DNA of 64,000 bases, taken from NCBI RefSeq assembly GCF_004010195.1, contig NC_057719.1, positions 27,649,458-27,713,457 on the forward strand, read 5' to 3'. The stretch is from Chiloscyllium plagiosum (Eukaryota). The position numbers and the translations under genes were made by a program. Positions within the stretch are counted from its first letter, which is position 1; each line of letters starts with the position of its first letter. Below the pieces are notes generated by a model, which saw only the letters and a list, made by a program, of their open reading frames with translations, did no database searches and was not told where the DNA came from. This document shows positions 123 to 64,000 of the stretch, piece by piece.

Positions 123-218
123 TCAGATCCAACTGCAAATTCCCTCCCCAAAGCCCAATTTGGAGAACACATCCCACGTGGAGGTGTGCGATATCCTGTC
201 AAAGGCCCTCTCTGGGTC
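123..218 (-). mobile_element. Inverted Tx1 RT segment abutting the 5' end of the Tx1 copy
   Basis: Minus strand reads DPERAFDRISHTSTWDVFSKLGFGEGICSWI, homologous to 369-456 on +. Confidence 0.85.
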
Positions 219-2150
219 AGGTCTGCTCTGGGATTGGTGAATCACCTCAATCAAACCTGTGCTGCACCAGGCAGGACAATCTTCAAGAGCCTCGCACTCC
301 TCAGGAATAGGATCGCCTCTGTGCAAGATGGGAGGAGGGTGGGTTGGGAGGCTTGCCTCATCAGCCTGGACCAAGAGAAGGCCTTTGACAGAATGTCACA
401 CACGTATATGTGGGGCGTGCTCTCCAAAGTGGGCTTTGGGGAAGAAATCTGGATCCAGCTGCACGACACCAACATCATTCATGCAGTCTCATCAATGGGT
501 GGGAATTAGAAAGCTTTCTGATCAGATGTGGAGTCAGGCAGGGCTGCTTACTTGCTCCTGCCTTGTTTGGGTGTGGTTTAGAGTCCTTGGCTAAGAGTAT
601 CAGGAAGAATGTGAGCCTGAGAGGGGCAACTATTCCAGACAGCAGAAGCCTGCAGGTCAATGCCTCCCTGTACATGGACGAGGTCACAGTTTTCTGCTCA
701 GATCTGTTGTCAGTTGCGCAGACTCATGAGCATCTGCAACCATTTCAATCTAGCCCCGACAGCTAAGGTAAATCAAGGCAAGAGTGATGCCATGTTCTTT
801 GGGAACTGGGCTGACTGATCCTTTCTCCCCTTCACCATCAGGACAGATGACCTGAAGATGCTGGGACATGCACAAAATCTTGGGAGGAGCACATAGCCAA
901 GGTGAGGCAGAAACTGGGCTTTTGGGAGCACTGCTTCCTTTCCACTGAGTAAAAACCTGCTCATTAGGTGTGAGGTACTCTCTCTGTTGCTGTCTATGGC
1001 AGAGGTCAGGCCCATTCCCAGAACCTGCACTTGAGCCATCATCCACTTCACCTGGAGACCTGAGATGGATCACGTCCACAGGGACACCATAGAAATAACT
1101 CTGGATAAGGCTGGGGAAGAAAATACCCAATTCTGCCCACATTCTGATGGCCAGCTTTGCATGTGGCTGCATCAAGTTGTGTGAAGACCCTCGGTTTGCA
1201 AACACGAAGTGTCACTACATACTGGGGTTCTACCTGTCCTCAGTGTTGCAAAGGATGGGACTGGCCTCGATGCTGCTGAACACTGCCGCTGAAAGTAGTT
1301 GGACCATTCCTTATTACCTATCCTTCATGGAGAAATTTGCAAATAAAAATACCTTTGACAACGGTCCATCAGGAAATGGTCAGCACATAGTATCCTCAAC
1401 ACCCTGTGGGAAAAGGAGAGGGTGGATCCTGTCATGTGGTTTCCTGAGCAGACTGTCAAAGTCATCTGGCAGAACGCCTCATCACCAGAACTTTCCAACA
1501 AGCACCAAGACATCACTTGGCTGTTGGTGAGGAGGGCACTACCTGTCAGATCCTTCTTGTAGGCCCGATTGGTCAGCATCAGCACATGCTGCCCTCAAAG
1601 CAGCTGGGGGTGTAGAGACTGTCACACATCTCCTTCTGGAATGTGCCTTTGCAAAGTAAGTCCGGAGAAAGATGCAGTGGTTTTTGTTGAAGTTCGTCCC
1701 GAGCAACTCCAGCAGTCAGGACTCTATGCTCCACTGTCTGTTTTTCTGGACGCACACCAAGACAAAAATTGACTGCCCCTGAAATAAAAACTCAGTGAAA
1801 GACATTCTTTAGTCTGCCCAAAACCTGTCTGTCTACCAGAACAAGGAGTTGACCTCGAACTAGTGTTGCAAACTGGAACATTTCAAGGCCCAGGACTTTG
1901 TGCTGAGGGACGCACTAAAGCTTGGGACAGTTGCTACTAAGGCGCAGTGGGGAAAGACTGCTGTCTGAGGTCTTTCAGCCAAAGTACAACGGTGCTCTGT
2001 TCAGTTATCGGACCATCCCGGAGCCTCAAATATATCTAAATAGAGTCTTGTATAAGAAAGAACTGATCTGTGTGCAGAATCACTCTAGTGACTATGTATG
2101 TATATGGTGTATCTTTTATGAATAAAGTATGTTTTTGAAATGAAAAAAAG
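214..2150 (+). mobile_element. 5'-truncated Tx1/L1-clade LINE, decayed ORF2 (RT plus C-terminal Cys/His motif)
   Basis: Frameshifted motifs QTCA.PGRTI, SLDQEKAFDR, GVRQGC and LYMDEV; Cys/His-rich end near 1585-1650; AATAAA at 2121 followed by an A-rich tail. Confidence 0.9.
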
Positions 2151-3717: not shown

Positions 3718-5613
3718 TGGGCAGCACAGTGGCTCAGTGGTTAGCACTGCTGCCTCACAGCGCCAGGTTCGATTCCAGTCTCGGGTGACTGTCTGTCTGT
3801 GTGGAGTTTGCACATTCTCCCGGTGTCTGCGTGGGTTTCCTCCGGGTGCTCCGGTTTCCTCTCACAGTCCAAAGATGTGCTGGTTAGGTGAATCGGCCAT
3901 GCTAAATTGCTCATTGTGTTAGGTCAATTAGTCAGAGGGAAATGGGTCTGGGTAGGTTACTCTTCAGAGCTGGAAATGTGTTGCTGGAAAAGCGCAGCAG
4001 GTCAGGCAGCATCCAGGGAACAGGAGAATCGACGTTTCGGGCATAAGCCCTTCTTCAGGAATGAGGAAAGTTTGTCCGCACCTCCACACACATCATCTAT
4101 TGCATCCTCTGCACCCGATGTGGCCTCCNNNNNNNNNNNNNNNNNNNNNNNNNNNNNNNNNNNNNNNNNNNNNNNNNNNNNNNNNNNNNNNNNNNNNNNN
4201 NNNNNNNNNNNNNNNNNNNNNNNNNNNNNNNNNNNNNNNNNNNNNNNNNNNNNNNNNNNNNNNNNNNNNNNNNNNNNNNNNNNNNNNNNNNNNNNNNNNN
4301 NNNNNNNNNNNNNNNNNNNNNNNNNNNNNNNNNNNNNNNNNNNNNNNNNNNNNNNNNNNNNNNNNNNNNNNNNNNNNNNNNNNNNNNNNNNNNNNNNNNN
4401 NNNNNNNNNNNNNNNNNNNNNNNNNNNNNNNNNNNNNNNNNNNNNNNNNNNNNNNNNNNNNNNNNNNNNNNNNNNNNNNNNNNNNNNNNNNNNNNNNNNN
4501 NNNNNNNNNNNNNNNNNNNNNNNNNNNNNNNNNNNNNNNNNNNNNNNNNNNNNNNNNNNNNNNNNNNNNNNNNNNNNNNNNNNNNNNNNNNNNNNNNNNN
4601 NNNNNNNNNNNNNNNNNNNNNNNNNNNNNNNNNNNNNNNNNNNNNNNNNNNNNNNNNNNNNNNNNNNNNNNNNNNNNNNNNNNNNNNNNNNNNNNNNNNN
4701 NNNNNNNNNNNNNNNNNNNNNNNNNNNNNNNNNNNNNNNNNNNNNNNNNNNNNNNNNNNNNNNNNNNNNNNNNNNNNNNNNNNNNNNNNNNNNNNNNNNN
4801 NNNNNNNNNNNNNNNNNNNNNNNNNNNNNNNNNNNNNNNNNNNNNNNNNNNNNNNNNNNNNNNNNNNNNNNNNNNNNNNNNNNNNNNNNNNNNNNNNNNN
4901 NNNNNNNNNNNNNNNNNNNNNNNNNNNNNNNNNNNNNNNNNNNNNNNNNNNNNNNNNNNNNNNNNNNNNNNNNNNNNNNNNNNNNNNNNNNNNNNNNNNN
5001 NNNNNNNNNNNNNNNNNNNGTGTCCCAGAGGTGTTCTCTGAAGTGCTCCGCAAGTAGGCGGCCTGTCTCCCCAATATAGAGGAGGCCACATCGGGTGCAG
5101 AGGATGCAATAGATGATGTGTGTGGAGGTGCAGGTGAATCTGTGGCGGATATGGAAGTTTCCTTTGGGGCCTTGGAGGGAGTTGAGGGGGGAGGTGTGGG
5201 CGCAAGTCTTGTACCTCCTGCGGTTGCAGGGGAGGGTGCCGGGAGTGGAGGTTGGGTTGGTGGGGGGTGTGGATGTGACGAGGGAGTCACGGAGGGAGTG
5301 GTCTTTACGGAATGCTGTTAGGGGAGGGGAGGGAAATATATCCTTGGTGTTGGGGTCCGTTTAGACCAAACGGACCCCACCACCAAGGATATATTTCCCT
5401 CCCCTCCCCTATCAGCATTCCGTAAAGACCACTCCCTCCGTGACTCCCTCGTCAGATCCACACCCCCCACCAACCCAACCTCCACTCCCGGCACCTTCCC
5501 CTGCAACCGCAGGAGGTGCAAGACTTGCGCCCACACCTCCCCCCTCACGGTCGGTGTGGACTGGTTGGGCCGATGGGACTGTTTCCACACTGTAGGGAAT
5601 CTAATATAATCTA
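3718..5613 (+). mobile_element. HE1-type tRNA-derived V-SINE split by a Penelope-like insertion (parts 3718-3969 and 5549-5613)
   Basis: A-box tggctcagtgg, B-box ggttcgattcc and V-core ggagtttgcacattctccc; the body resumes at ggtcggtgtggact and ends in an ATCTA tail. Confidence 0.9.
3970..5548. mobile_element. Rearranged Penelope-like element (GIY-YIG end plus terminal arm), contains gap 4129-5019
   Basis: Minus strand 5020-5140 encodes FTCTSTHIIYCILCTRCGLLYIGETGRLLAEHFREH (GIY-YIG); hammerhead core CTGAAGA-agggc-ttat-gccc-GAAA-cgtc on - near 4030-4060. Confidence 0.85.
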
Positions 5614-7274: not shown

Positions 7275-8310
7275 TTACTGTTTCAAAAATATTTTTTATT
7301 AATAAAATCATCTAAGTACATAAAAATGATCTAAATCATATCTGTATCATGCAGAAAATGATTTATGTTCATTTGGAGGCACTGAGGGGGCCTAGTAACT
7401 GAACAGGCCCTTATTATACCCCCCTCCCCCCACCTTACCTCAGTTCCAACCTTCCAGCCCAGCACTGTCCACATGACCTGTCCTACCTAGCAATCTCCCT
7501 TCCCAACTATCCACGCCTGACTTGCTGTGCTTTTCCAGCACCACTCTGATCTAAACTCTGGTTTCCAGCATCTGCAGTCCTCACGTTTGCCTTATTATAC
7601 TTTGGCAGCAAGTCTTCAGATGGTGGTCTTCCCCACTGTAACTTGGCGGCAGCTACCCCAGGCTTTACTGCATCCCTCAGTGCCTAATACTGAACCTCAA
7701 GAGTTCACTGGGGAAATGCAACATTCCCACAGTCACCTGTGAATCACCGGCCCAAGACTATCCAAAGTGGAGGAGGAGCATCCGGGAAGGCACTGAGCAC
7801 CTTGACACTTGCCAGGCTCGGTCAGACATGGCAGTGAGGTGAAAACAGTGAAAGGAGCACACTGCTACACCAACACAGCACCCCCCCATCCCTTTCCATG
7901 GCCACCAATTGGCCCAAGTGTAACAAAGTCTGTGGAAGCCGTATCAATCTGTACAACTACCTACGGACTCACCCTGAAAGTGAAAGATAGTCATCTTGAT
8001 CTGTGAGAGATTGCCAATGATGGTGATGATGACGAAAAATCCAGGACCTTGAAATACACCAGTCTGCAACATTCGATCAAGGTCAACTCTTTATACTGGA
8101 AGACCAACAACTTCAGACAGACCAAAGAGCATCTTTCATCGCATTGATGATCTTCCAGCCTCAGTCGATGTTTGTTTTGGTGTACATCCTGGAAAACAGC
8201 TTGGAGATCATCAGGTCCTACGTCACGGAGTTGTTCGGGGTGAACTTTGACAAAAACCACTGCCTCTCTCTCCAGACTTCCTTTACATTCTAGGAGGATT
8301 CATGCGACTG
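7275..8310 (-). mobile_element. Fragmented Tx1 3' end, interrupted by a Penelope fragment (about 7420-7592) and other sequence
   Basis: Segments 7281-7410, 7600-7680 and 8035-8310 resemble the reverse complement of 1650-2140. Confidence 0.75.
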
Positions 8311-9242: not shown

Positions 9243-9445
9243 GGAGTGTGTTGCTGGGAAAGCACAGCAGGTCAGGTAGCATCCGAGGAGCAGGGGAAAT
9301 CGGTGTTTCGGGCATTAACCCTTAATCAGGAAGGGCTTATGCCTGAAACGTCAATTCTCCTGCTCCTCAGATGCTGCCTGACCTGCTGTGCTTTCCCAGC
9401 AACACACTCTCAACTCTGATCTCCAGCATCATCACTTTCTCCTGG
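9243..9445. mobile_element. Palindromic Penelope-terminus mini-element (family A)
   Basis: Inverted arms spanning 9245-9409 plus a tail; flanking direct repeat aaagaagaaca at 9232-9242 and 9446-9456. Confidence 0.8.
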
Positions 9446-9479: not shown

Positions 9480-9810
9480 AGAGTGAACAGAAGTAGACAG
9501 GCAAGAGGCTGGAAGAACACAGCAATCCTGGCAGAATCTAGAGATGGAGAAGTTGAAGTTTCAGGTGTAACCCTTCTTCAGGACTGGGGGTGGGGGTAGG
9601 AGGAGCTGCAGATAAACGAGGAGGCGGAGCAGGGTTGTGAAATGGGGATAGGTGAAGACAGGTAGAGGGTACGACCCCATTGGTCAAAGGAAGGAATGAA
9701 TCTGGTTGGTGGCAGGGAGCAGAGGAAAGGATGGGGAGGGACTGGGAAGGGAGTCAGGGGATGGGGAGGGATGTTATTTGAATTTGGAGAACTCAATATT
9801 GAGTCCTTCA
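9480..9810 (-). mobile_element. Penelope-like 3' terminal fragment
   Basis: Minus-strand CTGAAGA-agggt-taca-cct-GAAA core; purine-rich spacer like the other PLE copies. Confidence 0.65.
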
Positions 9811-15339: not shown

Positions 15340-16965
15340 GAAACAAAGAACAGAGCATGCGAGAGAAACACAGTGGGCCTGGCAGAATCTCAAGATAGAA
15401 AAACAGAGTTAACACTCAGAGTCTGGAGACCCTTCGTCAGAAAGGAAAATAGCCAGGAAAGGGTAGTTGTATGTTGAGCTCTATCCAAGTTATAGGGAGC
15501 AAGGGAGAGGGTGAGAGCCAAAGTGCAAGAGATGGGTCAGGCATAGCTGAGAAGCCTGTTAACCACAATGGTGGGGAATTCTTGGTTGATGAAGAAGGTG
15601 GACATTTCAGAGGCCCCCTTGTCAAATTTGGTATCATCAGATCAGATGCGAAGGAGACAGAGAAACTGGGAGAATGGAACAGAGTCTTTACAGAAAGCAG
15701 GGTGTGAAGATGTATAGGAGAAAGTGAGGACTGCAGATGCTGGAGATCAGAGGTGTTTTGGCGGAAATGACAACGGATGATACGATACATATGGAGGTTG
15801 GTGGGGTGGTAGGTCCTCACCTACCCCAGGACAGAACCCCACTGGTCCTCACCTACCCCAGGACAGAACCCCACTGGTCCTCACCTACCACCCCACCAAC
15901 CTCCATATACATCGTATCATCCGTCGTCATTTCCACCACCTCCAAACAGACCCCACCACCAGGGATATATTTCTCTCCCCTACCCTATCAGCATTCCGAA
16001 AAGACCACTCCCTCCGTGACTCCCTCGTCAGGTCCACACCCCCCACCAACCAAACTTCCACTCCCGGCACCTTCCCCTGCAACCGCAAGAAATGCAAAAC
16101 GTGCGCCCACACCTTCCCCCTCACTTCCCTCCAAGGCCCCAAGGGATCCTTCCATATCCGTCACAAATTCACCTGCACCTCCACACACATCATTTACTGC
16201 ATCNNNNNNNNNNNNNNNNNNNNNNNNNNNNNNNNNNNNNNNNNNNNNNNNNNNNNNNNNNNNNNNNNNNNNNNNNNNNNNNNNNNNNNNNNNNNNNNNN
16301 NTGCAGGTCCTTGGACTCCTCCATCGCCAGACCATAGCAACACGACGGCTGGAGGAAGATCGCCTCATCTTCTGCCTAGGAACCCTCCAACCACAAGGGA
16401 TGAACTCCGATTTCTCCAGTTTCCTCATTTCCCATCCCCCCACTTTGTCTCAGTGCCAACCCTCGAACTCAGCACCACCTTCCTAACCTGCAATCTTCTT
16501 CCTGACCTCTCCGCCCCCACCCCCACTCCGGCCTATCACCCTCACCTTAACCTCCTTCCACCTATCACATTTCCAACGTCCCTCTCCCAACTCCATCCTC
16601 CCTACCTTTTATCTTAGCCCGCTTGGCACACTTTGCTCATTCCTGAAGAAGGGCTCATGCCCGAAAGGTCGATTCTCCTGCTCCTTGGATGCTGCCTGAC
16701 CTGCTGCGCTTTTCCAGCAACACATTTTCAGCTGTGAGGAAGTATAGACACGATAACTGTGGGAGCCAATGGGTTTGTCATGGATATCAGTGGCCAAGCT
16801 AACCCCAGAATTAGAAACAGATGTCTAGGAAGGAAAGGGAAGAGTCTGAGATGTTCCAGGTGAAGATGAGAGCGGGGCAGAAATTGGAAACAAAATTGAT
16901 AAACTTTTTGAATTTTGGATGAGAGGGGGAAGCAGCACTAATGATGTCATCAATGTACCAGACAA
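15340..16965 (-). mobile_element. Older Penelope-like element (15340-15715 and 16748-16965) hosting a younger PLE
   Basis: Minus frame WYIDDI...FINFVSNFCPALIFTWNISDSSLSFLD is PLE-type RT; a terminal arm with a decayed hammerhead lies near 15400-15440. Confidence 0.75.
15718..16732 (+). mobile_element. Penelope-like element 3' portion (Cys linker plus GIY-YIG) with an inverted 5' piece; gap 16204-16301
   Basis: PLVLTYHP...PGTFPCNRKKCKTC...FTCTSTHIIYCI; hammerhead-like core at 16643-16670; imperfect direct repeat at 15703-15717 and 16733-16747. Confidence 0.88.
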
Positions 16966-20079: not shown

Positions 20080-20578
20080 CGACGAGTGTGCGGCTGGAAA
20101 AGCACAGCTAGTCAGGCAGTATTCAAGGAGCAGGAGAATTGACATTTCAAGCATAACCTCTTTATCAGGAATGAGGGGGTGGCCCAAGGGGGCTGAGAGA
20201 TAAATGGGAGGAGGGTAGGGCTGGGGGGAAGGTAGCTGGGAATGCGAGAGGTAGATGAAGTTGGGGGTCAGAGAGGAAGGTGGAGAGGATAGGTGGGAAG
20301 GAAGATGGACAGGTAGGACAGGTCAAGACGATGGTGCTAAGTTGGAAGGTTGGCTGGTGGGGGGTGGTGAGGAAATGAGGAAACTGGTAAAATCTACATC
20401 GATCCCATGTGGTTGGAGGTCCCAAGGCAGAAGATGAGGTGTTCTTCCTCCTGGGGTGTGAAGGGTTTGGCGGTGGAGGTTTGGCTTCATGTCTTTGGCA
20501 GAGGGGGAAGGGGAGTTAGAGTGTTCAACCATGGGGCGGTGGGGTTGGTTGGTGCGGGTGTCCCAGAGATGTTCACTG
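20080..20578 (-). mobile_element. Penelope-like 3' fragment
   Basis: Resembles the reverse complement of 44811-45393 (EHLWDT...LQPHGIDVDF). Confidence 0.85.
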
Positions 20579-21599
20579 AAAAGAGGGATTTATATTTTCT
20601 GATTCAGTAAAATAAGTTCACCTTTGATTTAACAAAAACACCTGTAAAATTGAGGTCAGATTGATTTAGAAAATTATCCATATATCCATCAAAATCCATA
20701 ACAATTCTTGATATATATCAAGTACGATTCAGACAGTCACTTACTAACACATGTAGTTTACACTAAATCTTATTTGTCAAATGAGAATTTACAAAATAAG
20801 CTCAAAAAATAAAACCAGCACTCAGGAATTGCAACACAGAAATTTGTTGAAGTGTGATTTATGTTACATGGTCTCTCTCATACATAGCTCTCACTGTTTC
20901 TTGACCAGGCAGCATTGCAATTAAGTTTGATCCCATAGGGATTGTATGTCTGCTCCAGCACAGCCTAACTCAAAGTCCAGGAGAAAAGAATTTACCTCAA
21001 ATGAGCAAGAAGTTAAAACCTTAACCAGAAAGGTATCACTAAAAAACCTTTCCAATGGAACATTTCTTTTTAATCATTCATGAGATGCAGGCACTGTCAC
21101 CAGTTCTTACTCATCGCTAATTGCCTTTTGATTCGGTAGTAATGAGCTGCCTTCTTGAACTGCGGCAGACTGTGTGTTTAGTCAAACCAAAATACCATTA
21201 GTCAGTGAGTGCCAAGGTTTTGACTCTGTTCCTTCAGTGTCACTGGATCAAAACCACGGAACACCTTCCTAGTACTATTTTATGTCTACCCACAGCACAC
21301 AGAATGTTGCAGTTCAAGAAAGCAGCTCAACGTCAATATCAAGGTTTCATTTTATTAAAAAAATATCAGTTCAACAGTTTCTTAGGATTATTTATCCAGT
21401 TATGCAGAATGATACCAAGCGAAAGGGCAGTCTATCCATCTTCTCAGTGTAGGCAGTGCAAATGAGACACAAAAACAGTCACTCCAACACATTCTGATCC
21501 CTGGCTGGTTACATGTGTCACTACCAACCCTGGGGAAGATGATAGTTATCTGCCTACTCCAATACAATTGAATGGTTGTCAGAGGACCTCAGACAAAAA

Positions 21600-22350: not shown

Positions 22351-22369
22351 CTGATAGATCGGAGAATGA

Positions 22370-22558
22370 TTTGGAAATGCTACTGTTGGACTGGGGTGTA
22401 CATACTTAAAAATCACACAACACCATGTTATAGTCCAACAGGTTTAATTGGAAGCACTAGCTTTCAGAGTGCTGCTTCTTCAACCACCTGATGAAGGAAC
22501 AGAGCTCCGAAAGCTCGTACTTCCAATTAAACTTGTTGGATTATAACCTGGTGTTGTC
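22370..22558. mobile_element. Palindromic Penelope-terminus mini-element (family B) with hammerhead core
   Basis: Inverted arms; + core cac-CTGATGA-aggaac-aga-gctcc-GAAA-gctc; imperfect direct repeat at 22356-22369 and 22559-22572. Confidence 0.8.
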
Positions 22559-23439
22559 AGATATGAGAATGAAGGATATTACGTCAACAATTGTGGGAAC
22601 ACAAATGTAACAGCTAGTAGTGATACACAAGCTTGCCAACCCTCAAAGAGAAGGCTTGTTTTTTTTTTAAACAAAGCAAGTTTATGTTGCTTTGCTTGTC
22701 ATATATCACACAGGTATTCACATTTTCTTTGCACCAATAAACCCCCGTTCAGTTTGACATCAGAGAATCAGAATAGATTTCTGTTGTCTTACATGGAGGT
22801 CATGCTTGTAGCACAAAGACCTTTGTGTGCATTGTCACAGAGAATGGAGAGGGGCCACATGCTAACTGACACAGACCACAACCACAAAGCTTATCTTCCC
22901 ACTTCCCAGATGGCTTCTTCCCTCCACATGAGACATGTGCATGAGAATATCAGAGCCCTTCACAATGCCACATCTTAAGCAGCTAAGGTGATCATCATCC
23001 CGCAAGACATTTAAAAAGAGGGTGCAAAATTGTTGGAAGTATAACCAGATTACACAAGACCATGGGAATCGGGGTGCAACTCAAAAGGTTAGCACCGATG
23101 CACCCAAAGTGACCTCAATATTCTTTAATCTTTCTCTTCCTACTATTTTAAGTAGCTGCATCTCAGCTAAGCAGGTGGAAGCCTATCTGCTTTGCCACCT
23201 CGTCACAGATAACATTGACAGGCATCCTCAATCTTCAGCATCCTCGCTCCTTGGTATCTGCATGTGGAGGCACATTGGTCCCTGGTGGTGGTGACGTGAA
23301 ACTGCAGGGCACCTCTCAGCACACAATTCTGGGTGCCTATCTATCGGCTGTTTGTTACCCCAGTTGGTGCACCATATCACCTCCCTTACCCCTTGAGGGT
23401 TTGGGGTAAAGGTCCCTCGGCCCTCATTGTGGTGATGAA

Positions 23440-25899: not shown

Positions 25900-27040
25900 G
25901 AATGGGAGTTCTCCAGGAATAGATACCACTTCTTGGAGGTGAATTTTATTAGTTTTAGTTGAACTGTTTGTTGGACCAGACTGTTCTGGTGGACTGTTTG
26001 GCCTTAGAGAGGACAAGACTTTTCATCCAATATAATTTTTCCAACTAATATCCATGATAATCAAGCTGAAAGATTGAATTCATTTCAACAACCACTGCCA
26101 AAATGGTCAGGTCAGAAGAAAGAGTGTTGAAAGTTCCCATGGCTGTGTTCCAAACGTCTACCCTCCCCTTCCCATTCACCCAACTTTCAAACATCATCTT
26201 TCATTTGTCCACTAGCAGAAGTACTTCCATTATCATAACTAGGTTCAATCAGATTAAAGTTATCAATTTACCAGCTTGAGCCACTTAATGCATTTGTTCC
26301 ATTTCTCAAAACTGGAATGGGTTAGGAATGGGAGAAAGTGAGGACTGCAGATCAGAGTCAAAAAGTGTGGCACTGGAAAGGCACAGCCGGACAGGCAGCA
26401 TTTGAGAAGCAGGAGAGTTGACGTTTCAAGCATAAGCTTAGCTCATGCTCGTAACATCGGCTCTCCTACTTCTCGGATGCTGCCTGCCTGGCTGTGTTTT
26501 TCCAGCGCCACACTTTTTGACATAGATTAGGAATGGTTTGTGGAGTGTTGGAACATATGACTAGAGATGCAGTTTTGATTTGTTATAATCCTAAGAATAA
26601 ATTGGTTTTAGCATGCAATGCCTGACTATAGAGGTTAGATCTAGGTATGGAAGATGGTGGGGAAAGTTCTGTAGCATTTGTTTCACATTAACAAAGTCAG
26701 ATTGAAATTGCTCAAAGTTGAGAAATAGGCGTTCCTGATCAAATATGGGGTTAAGTTCCACACTTTCTTGTATGGTAGGAAGTCCATTTTGACTGTCCAC
26801 TATGTCGTTATCATAAGAAAAGTATGGAAATTACCATCTAGCTGATCACAAAACAAATACATCTGCAACACCATTTGATGTTGGGTAAAACAGTGGTATC
26901 AATTGGCATTTAACTCCATTTTTACTCCAATATTTCAAATTCCTCTGATTTAAACTGTTGACTCTAGCATCTGTGGGAATCCATAAATCATATTTGGTTT
27001 AAAGAGGACAATACCATTCCCAGTGAGTATAAATTTTCAC
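25900..27040 (-). mobile_element. Decayed Gypsy/Ty3 integrase region
   Basis: Minus strand gives IYGFPQML..QFKSEEFE and KNGVKCQLIPLFYPTSNGVADVFV, compare the integrase core YGLP..LVSDNG.QF.SEEF..NGI.H..PYHP.SNG.AERFV. Confidence 0.6.
26332..26526. mobile_element. Palindromic Penelope-terminus mini-element (family A)
   Basis: Arms gtcaaaaagtgtggc...gccacactttttgac; direct repeat ttaggaatgg at 26322-26331 and 26527-26536. Confidence 0.8.
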
Positions 27041-27286: not shown

Positions 27287-27514
27287 AACAACAACGACAG
27301 AAATTGCTGGAAAAGCTCAGCAGGTCGGGCAGCATCTGTGGAGAGAAATCAAAGTTAATGTTTCGGGTCCAGTGAGTCTTCTTCAGACTACCACTGGAAC
27401 CAGAAAATTAATTCTGCTTTCTATCCGCAGATGCTGCCATAACTGCTGAGCTTTTCCAGCAATTTCTGTTTTTGTTTCTGATTTCCAGCATCCACACTTC
27501 CTTCAGTTTTTATT
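27287..27514. mobile_element. Palindromic Penelope-terminus mini-element (family C)
   Basis: Arms acagaaattgctggaaaagctcagcag...ctgctgagcttttccagcaatttctgt; 15-bp direct repeat tgcaatgtattcagc at 27272-27286 and 27515-27529. Confidence 0.8.
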
Positions 27515-28617: not shown

Positions 28618-28846
28618 GGTCTAGATCAGAGTGGTGCTGGAAAAGCACAGGAGGTCAGGCAGCATCCAAGGACCAGGAAAATCGATGTTTTGGGAAAAAG
28701 CCCTTCAACAGGAATGCCCTGAAGGGCTTTTGCCCGAAACGTCAATTTTCCTGGTCCTCGGATGCTGCCTGACCTGCTGTGCTTTTCCAGCACCACTCTG
28801 ATCTAGACTCTGATCTCCAGCATCTGCAGTCCTCACTTTCACCGCC
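28618..28846. mobile_element. Palindromic Penelope-terminus mini-element (family A)
   Basis: Arms gtctagatcagagtggtgctgg...ccagcaccactctgatctagac; 13-bp direct repeat gatccaaaatggg at 28605-28617 and 28847-28859. Confidence 0.88.
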
Positions 28847-44810: not shown

Positions 44811-45393
44811 GAGCCCTTCAGGGAACATCTCTGGGACACCCGCACCAATCAACTCTGCTGCCCCGTGGCCCAACATTTCAACTCCCCCTCCCACTCTGCC
44901 AAGGATACGCGGGTCCTGGGCCTCCTCCACCACCGCTCCCTTACCACCAAATGCCTGGAGGAAGAAAGCCTCATCTTCGGCCTCGGAACACTTCAACCAC
45001 AGGGTATCAATGTGGACTTCACCAGTTTCCACATTTCCCCTCCTCCCACCTTACCTCAGTTCCAACCTTCCAGCTCAGCACTGTCCTCATGACCTGTCCT
45101 ACCTGCCAATCTTCCTTCCCACCTATCCACTCCACCCTTCTCTCTGACCTATCACCTCCATCCCCACCCCCATTCACCTATTGTACTCTTTGCTACCTTC
45201 TCCCCAGCTGCCTCCACCCCTCCTTCCTATTTATCTCTCCAACCTGTAGGCTTCCTGCCTCTATTCCTGAAGGGCTTTTGCCCGAAATATTGATTTTCCT
45301 GTTCCTCGGATGCTGCCTGACCTGCTGTGCGTTTCCAGCACCACTCTGATCTAAACTCTGGTTTCCAACATCTGCAGTCCTCACTTTTGCCTG
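44811..45393 (+). mobile_element. Penelope-like 3' fragment with terminal arm
   Basis: FREHLWDT..PVAQHFN..EESLIFGLGTLQPQGIN; direct repeat atgaatgaa at 44802-44810 and 45394-45402. Confidence 0.88.
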
Positions 45394-47195: not shown

Positions 47196-47707
47196 AGACA
47201 GCAACGGGTAAAACTAAAAGGCAACAGGATTAGGAGTGGATGGATAAAAGATTGGTTAGTAGACAGGAAACAGAATAGGAATAAATGGATCTTTTCCTGA
47301 TTGGCATTAGTTACTATTGGGATACTGCAGAGATTAGTACTAGAACCCCAGCTATTCACAATATATATTAATGATTTTGATGAGGAAACTAAATACAACA
47401 TCTCAAAATTTGCAGGTGATAGAATGCTGGATGGGAGGGTGAGCTGTGAGGAGAATGCAGAGATACTTCAGTGTGACTTGAGCAGACTGAGCGAGTGGGT
47501 AAATGCATGGCAAAGGCAGTACAATGTCAATAAGTTAAAGTGTATCCACTTTGGTCACAGAAGTTAGGAAAGGAGATCATTATTTAAATGGCTGTAAATT
47601 AACTGAGGGGAATGCTGAATGAGACCTGGATGCCTTTGTGCACCAGTCGTTGAATGTAAGTGTGTAGGTGCAGCAGGCAGTAAAAGAAGGCAAACTGTAT
47701 TATAGTG

Positions 47708-47928
47708 TTAAAAATCACACAACACCAGGTTATAGTCCAACAGGTTTAACTGGAAGCACTAGCTTTCGGAGCGACGCTCCTTCATCAGGTGATTGTGGAC
47801 AATCACCTGATGGAGGAGCGTCGCTCCGAAAGCGAGTGTGCTTCCAATTAAACTTGTTGGACTATAACCTGACGTTGTATGATTTTTAACTTTGTACACT
47901 CCAGTCCAACACCGACATCTCCGAATCG
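47708..47928. mobile_element. Palindromic Penelope-terminus mini-element (family B) nested in CR1
   Basis: Arms of about 90 bp centred on attgtggacaat; 12-bp direct repeat tgtattatagtg at 47696-47707 and 47929-47940. Confidence 0.88.
47757..47791 (-). ncRNA. Minimal type I hammerhead ribozyme motif with intact core
   Basis: cac-CUGAUGA-a-ggagc-guc-gcucc-GAAA-gc-UA-gug: short helix I cac/gug, 5-bp helix II, palindromic AGCU in place of helix III; activity not shown. Confidence 0.7.
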
Positions 47929-49529
47929 TGTATTATAGTGAGAGAGTATGTGTATAAGGATGTCTTGCTGTAATCGCACAGCGTATTGATGAGACCACAT
48001 CTGGAGTATTGTGTGCAGTTTTGGTCTCCTTATCGGAGGAAAGATGTTCTTGCTAGAGGGAGAGTACAGCAGAAGTTTACCAAATTGTTCCCTGGGATGG
48101 CAGGACTGACGTACGAGGACAAACTGAGTTGGTTAGGATTGTATTCACTGGAGTTTACAAGATGAAGACCTATAAAATTCTAACAAGGCTAGACAGGGTT
48201 AGCTGCAGGAAAGATGTTACCAATGGTGGGAGAGTCTGAAACCAGGGGTCATAGGATAAGGGGGTAATCATTTTAGCACCGAGATCAGGAGAAATTTCTT
48301 CACCTGGATGGTATATGAATAGGAAGGATTTGGAGGGATATGGGCCCTGTGCTGGCAGGTGGGACTGGATTGGGTTGGGATATCTGGTCGGCATGAACGA
48401 GTTGGACTGAAGCGTCTGTTCCATGCTGTACATCTCTATGACTCTATGACACCTTGAGAGTGATGAGCCTTTGGATTCTACTACCATAGTAGAATCCAAA
48501 GGCCAATACATTAAGTTTTCCAGGAGGAGGTAGATATAGCTATTGTGGCTAAAGGGATCAAGAGATATGGAGGGGAGGCGAGGGATTAAATTATTAAACT
48601 CGATGATCAGCCATGGTCATATTAAATAGCACAGCAGTCTCGACAGGTCAAATAGTCAACCCCTGCTGCGATGTTTCCATGGAACACCCCAGAGGGCTGT
48701 GGAAGCTCTGTTATTAAGTAAGTTCAGGACAGAGATTGAAAGATTTCTAGTTATTAATGACATCAACAGATATGGGGTCATATCGGAAGAAGGCACTATA
48801 GTAGATGACCAGCCATGGTTGTGAATGGCAGAGGAGACTCCTGTTCCCAAACTTCCTACAGGAAACAAAAGCAGTCATCAAATCTCACAGAGCAGAGAAA
48901 GTCTCACCTTTAACAGACAGCGCCCCCTGATAAGGCTGTGCACTGAGTATAACAGTGGTGATTATGCCTTAGGTCTCAATGCAAGCAGAATGACTTGGTC
49001 AGTTTAGCAGCTGCAGTGCCAATGCCATTTTTGACAGGTGAGGCATTTCAGAACAAATTGCAACAGACAACATAATTACAGCCTTCAATTACAGCTATTT
49101 CAGTTTAAAGTGAAACCTCATTATAGATCAGGCATACTTTAAATTGGCACAGTCAAAAACCATCGGGAGACTGTGAATTCCTTTATAAGGAGCACATAGT
49201 GGATAATTGCCAAAAGGGACACTCGACAGAAGCCCTCCAATTTTCAATGGAGATTCAGAATGAAGCTTGATCAGAATTTTTAGACTTGAAGAAAGACCTT
49301 AAATAGACTGCCAGATGGATTGAACTTGACAAGCAGACCAGACGCCTGATTTAGAAAGGCCCATGTATTGTCTTGCATGCATCCCATAAGATGGGCCATT
49401 TTCAGGTGGTTAGCTGAAGCAACAATAGAAGATTTCAGCCTGCAGCAAAGAAGTTTCAAAGATGTCTCCTCAGTCAACAACTGTCCAAGAAGTGAGGGTG
49501 AATGTCTCTGACACCAATGCAGCATTTGA

Positions 49530-53869: not shown

Positions 53870-54860
53870 CCCACAGATCAGAGAAACCTCAAAAATATTC
53901 CTGGCCAATCTGAGATCCAATTATAACTAACTTTATTGCCTTTGGATTCCTTGGGCAGTGTTTGGAGAAATACAAGACCTTGGTCCATTCCACTGTCACT
54001 CCTAACACTAACTCATTTCACCATGGCACCTTCTAGTCCCTTTACAGATCTAAAACTCATCCAATCGTCTCCTCCATCCTCACTGTCCAAAGCCTCAAAA
54101 ACGTCCAGGTGAAGCAGCAGTTTACTTGTATTTCTTTCATTCCAGTTTACTGTATTTGCTGTCTCACAATGTGGTCTTCTTTACATTAGGGAGACCAAAA
54201 GTAGACTGGGTGAGTATTTTGTGGAACACTTCCACTCTGTCTCTAGGAACGTCTGTAACCTTCCATATGTTTCACCTTGCGCTAGTGCTAACAATATTGT
54301 CCTGGGTCTGCTGCAATGTTCCACTGAAGCACAATGCAAGCTCAAGGAACAATAACTCATTTTCTGCTTAGACACTCTGCAGTCTTGAGGACGTAATACT
54401 GGGTTCCATAACTTCAAAAACTGATCACATTATAACTGTTCTCCATTTCTCTTGTATTCATCCACCTCCCCCTACAACCCCTCTAGCCCTTTGACTTTTG
54501 CACTGGGCCTCTCTACCACCTTCGGTAAAAACAATGACTGTAGATGTTGGAAACCAGATTCTGGATTAGTGGTGCTGGAAAAGCACAGCAGTTTAGGCAG
54601 CATCTGAAAAGCAGTAAAATTGATGTTTCAGGCAAAAGCCCTTCATCAGGAATATAGCATACAGCTCTCTACCACCTTGCTCTCCTTCACCTGTCAAAAA
54701 TATTTCATAAAGTTATCTTTAGTCTTTTTCAGTTCTGAAGAGTCGTTGTGCACTGAAAACGCTGACTCTGTTTCTCTCTTAATGGATGCTGACAGACACG
54801 TCGTGTTTCTTCAGCTTTCCATGTGTTTCTCACACTATTTATAGTCACAGCACCTCTGCA
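53870..54860 (+). mobile_element. Old Penelope-like 3' region (GIY-YIG) with a nested family-A arm at 54523-54664
   Basis: LYLLSQCGLLYIRETK-like GIY-YIG motif across frameshifts; the nested arm is flanked by ctctctaccacctt at 54509-54522 and 54665-54678. Confidence 0.78.
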
Positions 54861-55835: not shown

Positions 55836-56184
55836 GGAGAAAGTGAGGACTGGATGCTGGAGAGTCAGAGTCACAAAGTGTGGTGCTAGAAGGGCACAGC
55901 AGGTAAAGAAGCATCCGAGAAGCAGGAAATGTTAGAAGATAGTTCTGATGAATCACCCTCCATCCAACAACAGGCTAGCATCATCAGGTCTGAAAGGTGA
56001 TAAAAGATTTCCGGCTGTTAGAATGACAACTGCAATTGGACAGCATCAAGTGGATGTAAAACGTGTCGGACAAATACTGGTACTCAATGCAAGATTGTGA
56101 GCTTTGTAGACCAGTGCAAAAAGTGTCTTAAGAATATGATCCAAAAATGAACACTTCCAAAAATAAAGTTGAGCCTACATAATA

Positions 56185-60945: not shown

Positions 60946-61922
60946 TGCAGTTTCAGATTCCTCATCAAAATCCACACAACTGAAGTAAATCTAAAACCTG
61001 AGTGAGTAAAGCTCAACATGCCAGAAGAGATCTACAGCATTTTGCAGGTTATTAAGCATTGACAACAGATCTTAATTGATTGCAAAGACTTGGTGGAGAA
61101 ACTGAGAATCCAACTAATGCAGAAGGTCCTGAAAAATGGAATGAAAGGCAATCAAGAAATTATTCTTGGAGGAGCTGGCAACTCAAAACAAGTGAAAGTA
61201 GAAGAGATAGTCATCAGAACAGCAGAGAAAGATTGTAAAAAGGATAAAAGAATGGAACAAGAAAATAATAGGATTTGAAGATGGCTGAAGTCGAAGACAC
61301 ATGCTCACAATCAAAGTATCATAATGGTCACAATATAATACCTAATATAGGCAGAAATACACAGTCTTTCACACAAAAGACTGACACACTAAAGCTCTTA
61401 AATCAAATGAATTGTTTTATAATGCACAATGCAGACTTACATCAACAGTGCCTACAATTTAGTGAAGTATTTCATTGGCTCCTTAGGGCAGCTTTGCAGT
61501 TCTGAAAGATGCTGTGGAGCAGCATTTCTTTTGAGTCCTAGCTATCTTTTACGAGGTTAAAATCTACGTGCTATTTCTAACAACACAAGGTATAAAGCTC
61601 AACCTATTTTGAAATCATACTGATGAAAATTGCACACCTCGCTGATACTTTTAGAACAGCACTTTTCCCAATGTCAATATAAACAGAGCAGACGAAACGG
61701 TATCTCTCTGGAGAGAAACAATGTTAACCTTTTACAGTTGCAAACCACTTATCAGACATAACTCCATCAGTTCTGAACAAAGGCTACAGACTGAAAACTC
61801 TGTTTACCTTCTCCACACAAAACGCTGCTTCAAATGGAGCTTTGTTTTACTATCTGAAATCAAGTAACAGAGGTCAGTGTACTGACAGTGAGAGGACTTG
61901 GCCTGGATCCTGAAAGATACCG

Positions 61923-62004
61923 GAAGAAGGGCTTATGCCCGAAACGTCGATTCTCCTTGGATGCTGCCTGATCTGCTGCACTTTTCCAGCAACACATTTT
62001 TCAG
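61923..62004 (+). mobile_element. Single-arm Penelope terminus (family A)
   Basis: gaaga-agggc-ttat-gccc-GAAA-cgtc; 15-bp direct repeat tcctgaaagataccg at 61908-61922 and 62005-62019. Confidence 0.82.
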
Positions 62005-62305: not shown

Positions 62306-62512
62306 GCTCATGGCCAATGGTGTGTAAGGGCAAAGAACAAGCAGCAGTTTTCACTTGAATCAAATGCCAGGAACCCGGCAGGGTTAGCCACTCTGCACCT
62401 TGAAAGTCGGCGGTGAAAGCTGATATTGCCCGCCATAGCTATGGAATACTCCATGGTATCTCAAGCTGGCTGGCGAACAGGACTTCGACACCCTCCTGCC
62501 TTACAAAGCAAT

Positions 62513-62637
62513 AAAAACAAGGACTGCAGATGGCTGGAAACCAGAGTCTAGATTAGAGTGGTGCTGGAAAAGCACAGCAGGTCAGGCAGCATCCGAGGAG
62601 CAGGAAAAAAAAACATCGACATTTCGGGCAAAAGCCC
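62513..62637 (-). mobile_element. Single-arm Penelope terminus (family A)
   Basis: Direct repeat tacaaagcaat at 62502-62512 and 62638-62648. Confidence 0.82.
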
Positions 62638-64000
62638 TACAAAGCAATCAGACTGTCCAGCAGCCCTATCAGCCCAGGTTAGAGCAGTAGCCAACACTGC
62701 AATCCCCAGAGAGGTTGAGCTAACAGAGGCCAGACTTCAGGTAAGTCTGGCGTATTGATGGGACCAGGCTAATAGACACCAGGGAGGGAGCAGAATGTTT
62801 ATTCTGGGGTGGGGAAGCAGTGAGGCAGACAGAAAGAGTAACATGGGGGGAAAAGGTGGGGCTCTTCCAGGAGCATGGTGACACCCAGAAAGAGGATCTT
62901 CCCAACACCACCATCCCCCAAACTTGCCCAATAAAAACTGCCAGGCATACACAGCTACCATGTTTCCCCCCCACCCCTTACCATGGGTAAAATAGGGGCC
63001 AGGGCAGGAGCAGGCACTTTTGTGGTCATTAACTGGATAATAAAAGGCATTCCTCTGTAAAACGGGAGGAGAGATCAGGATGGGCAGGCAGGTAGTGTAC
63101 AGGCCACAGCTTTTTATAATCGAGCACAGTTCCCCCAACTAATCCCATCTTCAAATCCACTTCAGGGAAAGTAAAGTTCTACCAGTGGGAAAATTTCCCA
63201 CGTCAAATGGTCTGTTGCTTTATGCTCACTTTTTTAAAGCAGTTGGCCTCATTATATCTTTTTCCTATGATAAAAAATGATTAAACATTCACAATATTAT
63301 TAAGACATCCTGCAGAATGAAGCCTAGTTTATTCCAAAGTTGTGAGCTAGCTAGATAGTCACAATTGATGACAAACCAGTTAAAAGTATCACAATAATGT
63401 TCTGAACCTTTGGATAGACATTTAAAAAAGCCACTTTCTACCTAAATATATTTTGAATATATTCTGCATCCTGTAATGAGAAAGGTGTCAAAAGAAAATT
63501 AATATCAAGTAAATTTAAAATGTTTAGTTTGAAGAATACAAATTCCATACCTTCTGAAATAAATTGTGGGAAAACAATCTGTGGAGAGCTGAAGCTCATC
63601 TTGATAACTCTGCCTTTCTGTAGATGGTCCTATTCAGAAGGGATTTCAGGACAGCAACCATTCATTTCACAGATGCAAACAAAAGCCAAACTTCAAATCA
63701 GAGTTACACTGGAGGAGCAATGCTGCAGGTAAACAACGTTAAATTCACGGGAAGAAAAGCAGTAAATCCTTTCCACAGACCTCCAATGGTCACAATATTG
63801 TATTGTTTAATCTCGGCAGAAAATCAGTCTTTCACACAAAAAAACTGACACACTAAAGCTCTTAAATCAAATGAATTGTTTTATAATGCACAATGCAGAC
63901 TTACATCAATAGTGCCTACAATTTAGTGAAGTATTTCATTGGCTCCTTAGGGCAGCTTTGCAGTTCTGAAAGATGCTGTGGAGCAGCATTTCTTTTGAGT

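What the first reader, a model, noticed from the sequence alone, without database searches (positions are those of the whole stretch)
47696..47940. Fold-back element with back-to-back hammerheads, one with an intact core
Seen: inverted arms of about 90 bp centred on attgtggacaat. The minus-strand copy (47757-47791) has every core nucleotide, CUGAUGA..GAAA-GC-UA. The plus-strand copy has two core substitutions (CTGATGG, GCGA). One arm carries an extra tail of about 38 nt. Established: PLE minimal hammerheads have a palindromic helix III and are proposed to cleave as dimers. Inference: transcription through either strand makes a long hairpin that sequesters the ribozyme and could be an ADAR or Dicer substrate.
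Basis: partly seen in the sequence, partly recalled or inferred. Interest (0 to 1): 0.7.

Follow-up and report, generated by a model that had tools for sequence, protein, structure and literature searches.

The report
Fold-back Penelope retroelement stub
This is an ordinary short, mirror-image insertion left by a Penelope-type jumping gene; each of its two halves carries a copy of the element's small ribozyme motif, but the hairpin shape is predicted to stop either copy from folding.

Summary
In detail: 92-column inverted arms (83 matches), an intact minimal-hammerhead core on the minus strand, two core changes on the plus strand, and a 38-nt tail. A contig from a related organism shows the empty site with the duplication once, so this is a retroinsertion. 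It matches the published Penelope-like-element pattern (inverted truncated pLTR end, one tail, TSD; opposite-strand min-HHR pairs). Five more short fold-backs lie in this window, and the scan already noted the kind repeatedly in this genome. The hammerheads are back to back only in DNA: each RNA strand holds one sense copy, transcribed after its own antisense, with helix II probability 0. The plus-arm core changes depart from the family norm (92% and 99.9% intact). No RNA read ties transcription or editing to this locus. Two side leads: the tail-less arm reaches further 5' in 6 of 7 insertions (one tie), which suggests staggered double priming, and family transcripts appear polyadenylated just past the uncut ribozyme. 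Verdict: real, known kind, low interest.

The parts
47696..47707 (+). Left copy of the 12-bp target-site duplication; its last base is shared with the arm end
   Evidence: Perfect direct repeat with 47929-47940; present once in the empty orthologous site (X12 record 1)
47707..47799 (-). Tail-less arm: 93-nt 3' end of a PLE pseudo-LTR, sense on minus, starting 11 nt before the ribozyme core
   Evidence: family-wide boundary at 47707 (1514 contigs with loose ends there in X2); upstream family sequence from loose ends at 47799
47757..47791 (-). Minimal type I hammerhead motif with intact core; predicted scissile bond between 47760 and 47759
   Evidence: Descriptor scan and anchored table; architecture as in PMC4209133; cleavage not tested
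47799..47890 (+). Tailed arm body: same pLTR end, sense on plus, starting 8 nt before the core; 1-nt overlap with the other arm at 47799
47804..47838 (+). Degenerate hammerhead copy (G for A9, G for U16.1, palindrome of helix III lost, 2-nt duplication downstream)
   Evidence: other family copies laid here read A at 47813 in 92% and T at 47834 in 99.9% of X2 depth
47847..47852 (+). ATTAAA hexamer, candidate poly(A) signal of the family (the mirror hexamer in the left arm, 47750-47745, carries a rare change)
   Evidence: family letters at 47749/47750 and poly(T) loose ends at 47730/47733 in RNA run X21; reading it as a poly(A) signal rests on recalled consensus
47891..47928 (+). 38-nt PLE 'tail', on one arm only
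   Evidence: same tail on the other family copy at 22367-22405; 30-40 bp tail described in PMC8557442 and PMC3846280
47929..47940 (+). Right copy of the 12-bp target-site duplication
47310..47695 (+). Host: decayed CR1-type LINE reverse-transcriptase region, left part
   Evidence: tblastn of another LINE ORF piece of the window (RVT_1, E 2.3e-15) hits 47310-47555 at E 4e-20; the label CR1 is recalled
47941..48450 (+). Host LINE continues after the insertion, through to its 3' end
   Evidence: tblastn hit 47935-48021 and blastn matches to many LINE 3' ends in the window

Best explanation
A dead-on-arrival insertion made by the machinery of an endonuclease-positive Penelope-like element (PLE). 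The endonuclease nicked an AT-rich site in an old LINE on both strands about 12 bp apart. Each nick became joined to a reverse-transcribed copy of the pLTR end, one beginning at the tail end and one 38 nt further in. Both copies stopped 8-11 nt upstream of the hammerhead core and were joined head to head. Shown: insertion, TSD, empty orthologous site, one tail, family boundaries, intact family core. Inferred: the order of enzymatic steps (from the two RT start sites and two-strand extension reported for the anole Poseidon element). The hammerhead is a passenger inherited from the parent pLTR, where compensatory changes between families show it was under selection. At this locus it is decaying and cannot fold in read-through RNA, because the antisense arm is always transcribed first. 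If the locus is ever read through, the RNA is a generic repeat-derived hairpin and a likely ADAR substrate, with no sign of a dedicated function.
For: Empty site: X12 (organism B) record 1, 350 nt, depth 11.9, maps 47435-47695 then directly 47929-48017 with 14 differences and no gap; filled site in another sample of organism A (X2 record 16, 47447-47728, 1 difference). TSD 12 of 12. Five more short fold-backs from three pLTR families in the 64 kb, each with one tail and a 10-16 bp direct repeat (scores 8-15; random >=8 in 24 of 1000), plus a 1-kb one with a 15-bp repeat. Centres differ between copies and often cut the ribozyme (15 joints shown and 540 more not shown, several of the shown ones linking the two arms at other positions). 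Family core intact at the two positions changed in the plus arm. Sequestration. Between-family compensatory pairs in helix II (A-U vs G-C; G-C vs C-G vs U-A), helix III palindrome AGCU vs ACGU, helix I A-U vs U-A (7 copies). Published architecture: PMC3846280, PMC8557442, PMC4209133, PMC11167929.
Against: The autonomous partner of this family was not found: no ORF is attached, and the upstream motif is absent from the window; the endonuclease fragments in the window adjoin a different pLTR family and match GIY-YIG only weakly (E 0.02; Atlas leads). The empty site rests on one contig of one run. The arms differ by 7 of 90 letters while the flanks differ from organism B by 14 of 350, more than a post-split insertion of identical arms would predict on average, and 6 of the 7 changes plus the indel sit on the tailed arm. 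The arms may not have been identical at insertion, or the site was polymorphic in the ancestor. Expression of the locus was tested only on about 2% of one 3'-biased run.
Confidence: 0.88

Rival explanations
1. Mechanistic alternative for the same insertion: self-priming fold-back. One cDNA (or an antisense template) folds at its end and is copied back on itself, as proposed by Arkhipova et al. 2013 for palindromic PLE junctions.
For: Proposed in print for head-to-head PLE junctions (PMC3846280 passages). Both arms share minority family letters (loop II, and the position mirrored at 47792), as a self-copy would.
Against: A self-copy of a tailed first strand should leave the unpaired centre on the tailed arm; here it belongs to the tail-less arm in 5 of 6 short fold-backs, with 1 tie. 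It also gives no reason for the second arm to stop at the fixed boundary 47707. An antisense-template version is not excluded.
Confidence: 0.2
2. The palindrome is a non-autonomous mobile unit (MITE-like or retrozyme-like) that is copied whole.
For: Similar size and anatomy of several elements in the window; flanked by TSDs.
Against: The second copy of this family in the window has a different centre and the tail on the other side; solo tailed arms with their own TSDs exist (54523-54662, 62510-62645); many different joints in family contigs. Retrozymes are defined as same-strand tandem units with at least two HHRs (bioRxiv 2026.07.22.740005).
Confidence: 0.05
3. A selected RNA device: a ribozyme switch or a source of edited or diced RNA with a host function.
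For: Very stable hairpin; one intact core; Penelope repeats are ADAR targets in other vertebrates.
Against: Absent from the orthologous site of a relative that differs by only 4% in the flanks; zero RNA depth on the adjoining flanks (47535-47696, 47940-47966) and no excess of A>G/T>C places over DNA runs (9/8 vs 8/7) in the one RNA raw-read run (weak test); plus-arm core decayed; helix II never forms in the hairpin; the active double-hammerhead fold scores -17.3 against -32.9 and -40.7 kcal/mol for the best co-folds, without tertiary contacts.
Confidence: 0.04
4. Assembly artefact (fold-back chimera).
For: Perfect hairpins can arise as artefacts; the window has gaps (1708 N); no listed contig spans the centre of this copy.
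Against: Arms differ at 9 of 92 columns; the TSD and the empty site give exactly the expected 233-bp difference; the left junction is seen in an independent sample.
Confidence: 0.02

Closest known systems
Inverted insertion units of EN+ Penelope-like elements (Arkhipova et al. 2013, PMC3846280; Craig et al. 2021, PMC8557442, Fig. 2 legend; passages read)
   Same: Head-to-head inverted 5'-truncated pLTR copy, 30-40 bp tail at one end only, TSD, insertion into other retroelements.
   Different: Both arms are only about 90 nt, with no ORF; TSD 12 bp against 8-10 bp in the rotifer examples.
[quoted passage not shown]
   Same: Type I core, extra nucleotide between 9 and 10.1, G10.1-C11.1, palindromic 15.2-16.2; the paper reports dual min-HHRs 100-700 bp apart on opposite strands and mostly solo motifs from truncated PLEs.
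   Different: Helix II is 5 bp and helix I 3 bp (7-8 and 4-5 bp in the S. mansoni families); the two cores are closer (C3 positions 19 nt apart); N17 is A here and C in the window's other families.
Anole Poseidon element PAc in vitro (Frangieh et al. 2024, PMC11167929; main text read)
   Same: AT-rich target, tail bounded by two RT start sites, both DNA strands extended, HHR dispensable for insertion and inactive without protein.
   Different: Different host and probably a different PLE clade (not established here); that paper does not treat inverted insertions in the text read.
Palindromic Harbinger repeats and Penelope repeats as ADAR targets (Porath et al. 2017, PMC5625713; PMC10636886; passages read)
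   Same: About 200-nt self-folding repeat that needs no second copy to form dsRNA.
   Different: Editing of this locus is not shown; Harbinger is a DNA transposon with a palindromic consensus, whereas here the palindrome is built at insertion.
Non-LTR retrozymes (bioRxiv 10.64898/2026.07.22.740005; abstract, introduction and part of methods read)
   Same: Non-coding, type I HHR, PLE pLTR origin.
   Different: Retrozymes are same-strand tandem repeats with at least two HHRs; this is an opposite-strand pair with one intact core.

Membership tests
EN+ PLE inverted insertion unit | Head-to-head inverted, 5'-truncated copies of the pLTR end | tested here: met
   both arms are truncated against the upstream family sequence seen
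EN+ PLE inverted insertion unit | 30-40 bp tail at one end only | tested here: met
   38 nt on the right arm only; fixed family boundary at 47707
EN+ PLE inverted insertion unit | Target-site duplication created on insertion | tested here: met
   12 of 12 direct repeat, single in the empty site of organism B (one contig)
EN+ PLE inverted insertion unit | Hammerhead motif in the pLTR | tested here: met
EN+ PLE inverted insertion unit | Parent element with PLE-type RT and C-terminal GIY-YIG endonuclease | tested here: inconclusive
   Not in the window for this family; a sister pLTR family adjoins an ORF fragment with a weak GIY-YIG match (E 0.02) and Atlas neighbours of which a minority carry GIY-YIG or HTH_animal, 10-18% of members; no genome held
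PLE min-HHR (type I) | Conserved core CUGANGA / GAAA / UH (minus copy) | tested here: met
PLE min-HHR (type I) | Conserved core (plus copy) | tested here: not met
   G at 9 and at 16.1; helix II probability 0.02-0.05 even in the isolated arm
PLE min-HHR (type I) | Extra nucleotide between 9 and 10.1, G10.1-C11.1, palindromic 15.2-16.2 | tested here: met
   Minus copy has all three; features listed in PMC4209133
PLE min-HHR (type I) | Covariation in the helices | tested here: inconclusive
   Compensatory pairs between three families in 7 hand-anchored copies; within the family, one search shows the largest variation in loop II (47774, 47775) and about 15% at two CpG stem positions, but gives no linkage between positions; no formal statistic was run
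PLE min-HHR (type I) | Self-cleavage as a dimer or with protein help | not testable with these tools
   No pile of RNA ends listed, but the library type cannot show it
Rfam hammerhead families | Match at gathering score | tested here: not met
   0 matches in the window; none among 12 matches at E<=10
Non-LTR retrozyme | Same-strand tandem units with two or more complete HHRs | tested here: not met
   Opposite strands, one intact core
MITE-like palindromic unit | Constant internal structure across copies | tested here: not met
   Centre and tail side differ in the second family copy; many different joints
microRNA precursor | Match to a family at gathering score; processed small RNA | tested here: not met
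   Best hits 40 bits against a cut-off of 81, on both strands, as any long hairpin gives; small RNA data not available

The most novel reading that the evidence does not exclude
These stubs record the missing step of PLE integration: staggered double priming. The two target nicks prime at the two RT start sites that bound the tail; the inner primer runs ahead and the tail-end primer trails behind it on the same RNA, displacing the first cDNA, and the two cDNA ends are then joined by microhomology. This predicts exactly one tail per fold-back (7 of 7 here), a tail-less arm that reaches as far 5' as the tailed arm or further (6 of 7, one tie) and shared subfamily letters in both arms. I found no statement of this rule in the passages read or in searches. 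In addition, the pLTR end appears to carry a working poly(A) site 27-30 nt past the uncut ribozyme (about 1000 reads in one run), so the many copies may donate transcript ends genome-wide. Against: n is small and the rule was seen post hoc; the tailed arm here carries most of the differences and a 2-nt duplication also found in about 30 contigs of organism B, which could mean two templates.
Probability: 0.22. Interest if true: 0.55.

Novelty: new member of a known kind. Interest (0 to 1): 0.2.

Why it matters
The locus itself matters little: it is one of very many PLE stubs. Its use is as a clean, dated integration footprint (filled and empty site, perfect TSD, both junctions readable). How PLEs make their inverted, one-tailed insertions is still open, and a genome this rich in short fold-backs makes the arm-length rule testable by counting alone. 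If the family's poly(A) site and hairpins are active at scale, these stubs could be a large source of transcript ends and ADAR substrates in this lineage.

Tried and rejected
Rfam: nothing at gathering score; at E<=10 only hairpin-driven microRNA and weak sRNA matches, rejected. No whole genome held, so no census. Exact-pattern scans of viral contigs and metagenome contigs for more family copies: 0 each. Of 24 runs listed, 4 were laid. The MAFFT alignment of 12 ribozyme regions put the families one column out of register in helix II, so no pair-count statistic was run on it; hand-anchored comparison of 7 copies that reach back to C3 was used instead, leaving out the 5 more decayed ones (B9L, B20, C27L, B28L, B61). 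Body-tail stem-loop: seen in 4 of 5 folded copies, but z only -0.3 to -1.7, not claimed. The 7515-7587 arm as the far end of the 3961-5547 inversion: only an 8-nt repeat away from the tail end, not accepted. Three solo arms (45255, 55836, 7512) gave no TSD. Summed contig depth was not used as copy number. The central 4+4 palindrome as a natural self-priming hairpin: rejected, since the upstream family sequence shows a 1-nt-overlap junction. Lunse et al. 2017 was not held and is known only through a review's passage. Supplement text of PMC11167929 held none of the search terms; its figures S1-S2 could not be seen and may bear on the tail and inversion model. Inverted pairs I3 and I11 were not examined.

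Full report
1. Observation. The sequence is as described. The two inverted pairs 47707-47759/47838-47890 and 47757-47796/47799-47838 form one hairpin with a 2-nt offset; the arms match at 83 of 92 columns, with 7 substitutions and 2 gap columns. The plus strand folds at -150.3 kcal/mol, z -21.3, with 0 of 200 shuffles as stable. On the minus strand, C3 at 47788 begins CUGAUGA, followed by one extra A, a 5-bp helix II, GAAA, the palindrome AGCU, A17 and a 3-bp helix I. A descriptor written for this architecture gives 5 hits in the window against 11 in 200 shuffled windows; this copy is the only one with both the palindrome and a full 3-bp helix I. The plus copy has G at positions 9 and 16.1 and a 2-nt duplication downstream. 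The tail is 38 nt. Rfam does not recognise the motif.

2. It is an insertion. A perfect 12-bp direct repeat flanks the element at 47696-47707 and 47929-47940; the same search reaches that score at 2 of 1000 random positions. Both flanks belong to one decayed LINE: a reverse-transcriptase fragment elsewhere in the window (RVT_1) aligns to 47310-47555 and again to 47935-48021. No genome was held, so I laid four public runs on 47400-48200 at 88% likeness. In DNA run X12 of a second organism (B), one 350-nt contig at depth 11.9 maps to 47435-47695 and continues without a gap at 47929-48017, with 14 differences. That is the empty site: the element plus one copy of the repeat (233 bp) is missing. 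Other LINE copies in the window match the left flank and the near right flank at only about 58-65%, so this contig is the orthologue. In another sample of the window's organism, a contig spans the left junction with 1 difference (X2 record 16). The empty site rests on one contig of one run.

3. It is one of a crowd. Of 11 inverted pairs in the window, two are this element, five are other short fold-backs (9244-9443, 22367-22559, 26331-26521, 27290-27514, 28619-28843), two belong to longer inversions that include endonuclease-like ORF sequence (3961-5547, 15717-16735), and two were not examined. The five short ones come from three pLTR families; each has one tail and a 10-16 bp flanking repeat (ends set by hand). 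The 1-kb element has a 15-bp repeat with 2 mismatches. Two of five solo arms tested have their own repeats. The copy at 22367-22559 is the same family as the finding, but with a different centre and the tail on the left. In all five other short fold-backs at least one arm is cut off inside the ribozyme. In one search about 55,000 contigs per DNA run were laid, almost all on the element; 1514 X2 contigs have loose ends at 47707, and 555 joints were recorded, of which 15 are shown. The scan's earlier notes describe the same kind many times on other pieces of this genome (unchecked AI notes). That the host is a shark is my recollection and those notes' wording, not a result of mine.

4. The ribozyme. 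Family contigs laid on the plus arm read A at 47813 (92% of X2 depth, 91% of X12) and T at 47834 (99.9%, 97.5%), so the two core changes are rare departures from an intact family core. Across three families in the window, helix II keeps its pairing through changed letters (A-U vs G-C; G-C vs C-G vs U-A), the helix III palindrome switches between AGCU and ACGU, and helix I shows A-U vs U-A (7 hand-anchored copies; several carry CpG-type decay). This points to selection on the parent elements, not on this copy. Geometry matters: the arms are joined at their 5' ends, so a transcript of either strand makes the antisense arm first and then one sense ribozyme. Helix II has probability 0.0 in both full strands and in 4 of 4 nascent minus-strand RNAs, against 0.98-0.995 in the isolated minus arm. 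The palindrome therefore cannot supply the second ribozyme for a dimer. Even two free arms prefer other co-folds (-32.9 and -40.7 against -17.3 kcal/mol; no tertiary terms). This fits reports that min-HHRs cleave poorly (PMC4209133) and that the anole element's ribozyme needs protein and is dispensable for insertion (PMC11167929).

5. RNA. In the one raw-read RNA run (X21, single-cell poly(A), about 2% read) 2441 reads were laid, 31 of them at 99% or more, and depth was zero on 47535-47696 and 47940-47966. Nothing ties transcription to this locus, but the test is weak. Places with A>G and T>C numbered 9 and 8, against 8 and 7 in both DNA runs, so no editing signal; hyper-edited reads would be lost at this threshold. 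No pile of ends was listed. Family copies are transcribed: 564 and 472 reads carry poly(T) before 47730 and 47733, that is, sense RNA ending in poly(A) 27-30 nt past the predicted scissile bond and running uncut across it. The family has AATAAA or ATTAAA 12-15 nt upstream (letters at 47749-47750) and a GU-rich stretch downstream (consensus recalled). Priming on genomic A tracts at a few loci is not excluded.

6. Mechanism. Shown: TSD, empty site, fixed arm boundary, one tail, 1-nt-overlap junction with arms starting 11 and 8 nt before C3 (loose ends at 47799). Inferred: staggered nicks, two priming events at the two RT start sites that bound the tail (as found in vitro for the anole element, where both strands are extended), and end joining of the two cDNAs. 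One regularity appeared post hoc. The tail-less arm reaches further 5' by 3 nt here, 11 nt at 22.4 kb, 8 nt at 9.3 kb, 8-10 nt at 28.7 kb and roughly 8 nt at 27.4 kb, with a tie at 26.4 kb; the 1-kb element agrees by eye. That is 6 of 7 with one tie (two-sided p 0.03; 0.06 for the short ones alone). A trailing second primer on the same RNA would give this; simple self-priming of a tailed first strand would give the opposite. Against a single template: 6 of the 7 arm substitutions and the duplication lie on the tailed arm, that duplication occurs in about 30 contigs of organism B, and arm divergence (7 of 90) exceeds flank divergence from organism B (14 of 350).

7. Comparison with what is known. 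The inverted truncated copy, the one-sided 30-40 bp tail and the TSD are described for EN+ PLEs (PMC3846280, PMC8557442; passages). Dual min-HHRs close together on opposite strands, and the extra nucleotide after A9, are in PMC4209133 (results and discussion read). It is not a retrozyme (same-strand tandems), not a MITE-like unit (variable centres) and not a microRNA family member. Membership of the PLE insertion class is met on four features; the parent ORF of this family was not recovered, and the endonuclease fragments of a sister family give only weak support. Paper searches were made; two listed no paper whose title or abstract start proposes twin priming for PLE inversions, and 48 none on a pLTR poly(A) site, but the library lacks most subscription journals, including several classic Penelope papers.

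8. Verdict. Real, well explained, a new member of a known kind. Interest 0.2. The residual value lies in the arm-length rule and the candidate poly(A) site, both testable with a whole genome and deeper RNA data.

Noticed in passing
window 9244-9443, 22367-22559, 26331-26521, 27290-27514, 28619-28843: Five further short PLE fold-backs from three pLTR families, each with one tail and a 10-16 bp flanking repeat; the tail-less arm reaches further 5' in four, tie in one.
   Followed up: yes
window 15717-16735: 1-kb PLE insertion: short tailed inverted arm with an internal deletion, a 31-nt tandem duplication near the centre, endonuclease-like ORF end, hammerhead at 16643, 15-bp flanking repeat with 2 mismatches.
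   Followed up: partly
window 3961-5547: Longer head-to-head PLE inversion (180-nt arms, 97% complementary, around 5365) across an N gap; minus arm ends in a hammerhead at 4058 with an intact core; the plus arm is cut off at 5547 by what looks like a LINE 3' end.
   Followed up: partly
family reads laid at window 47730-47733 (run X21): About 1000 RNA reads of family copies end in poly(A) 12-15 nt after an AATAAA/ATTAAA hexamer and before a GU-rich stretch: a candidate poly(A) site inside the pLTR end. Another 123 reads have A-rich loose ends right after the tail end (47927).
   Followed up: partly
window 47855-47910 and tails at 22367, 28843, 9443: The tail can pair back onto the body in both main families, putting the tail-less boundary inside a stem-loop; individually not significant (z -0.3 to -1.7).
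   Followed up: partly
window 54523-54662, 62510-62645, 45255-45392, 55836-55935, 7512-7592, 20084-20252, 61917-62000, 9500-9590: Solo pLTR ends of sister families; the first two have 14- and 11-bp flanking repeats; several begin just upstream of or inside the ribozyme.
   Followed up: partly
window 48467-48503: Perfect 17-bp inverted repeat with a 3-nt loop just after the LINE 3' end.
   Followed up: no
window 136-451 and 21143-21329: Two other inverted pairs (90 nt at 79%; 34 nt at 85%) that were not examined; the first lies in a reverse-transcriptase-like ORF fragment.
   Followed up: no
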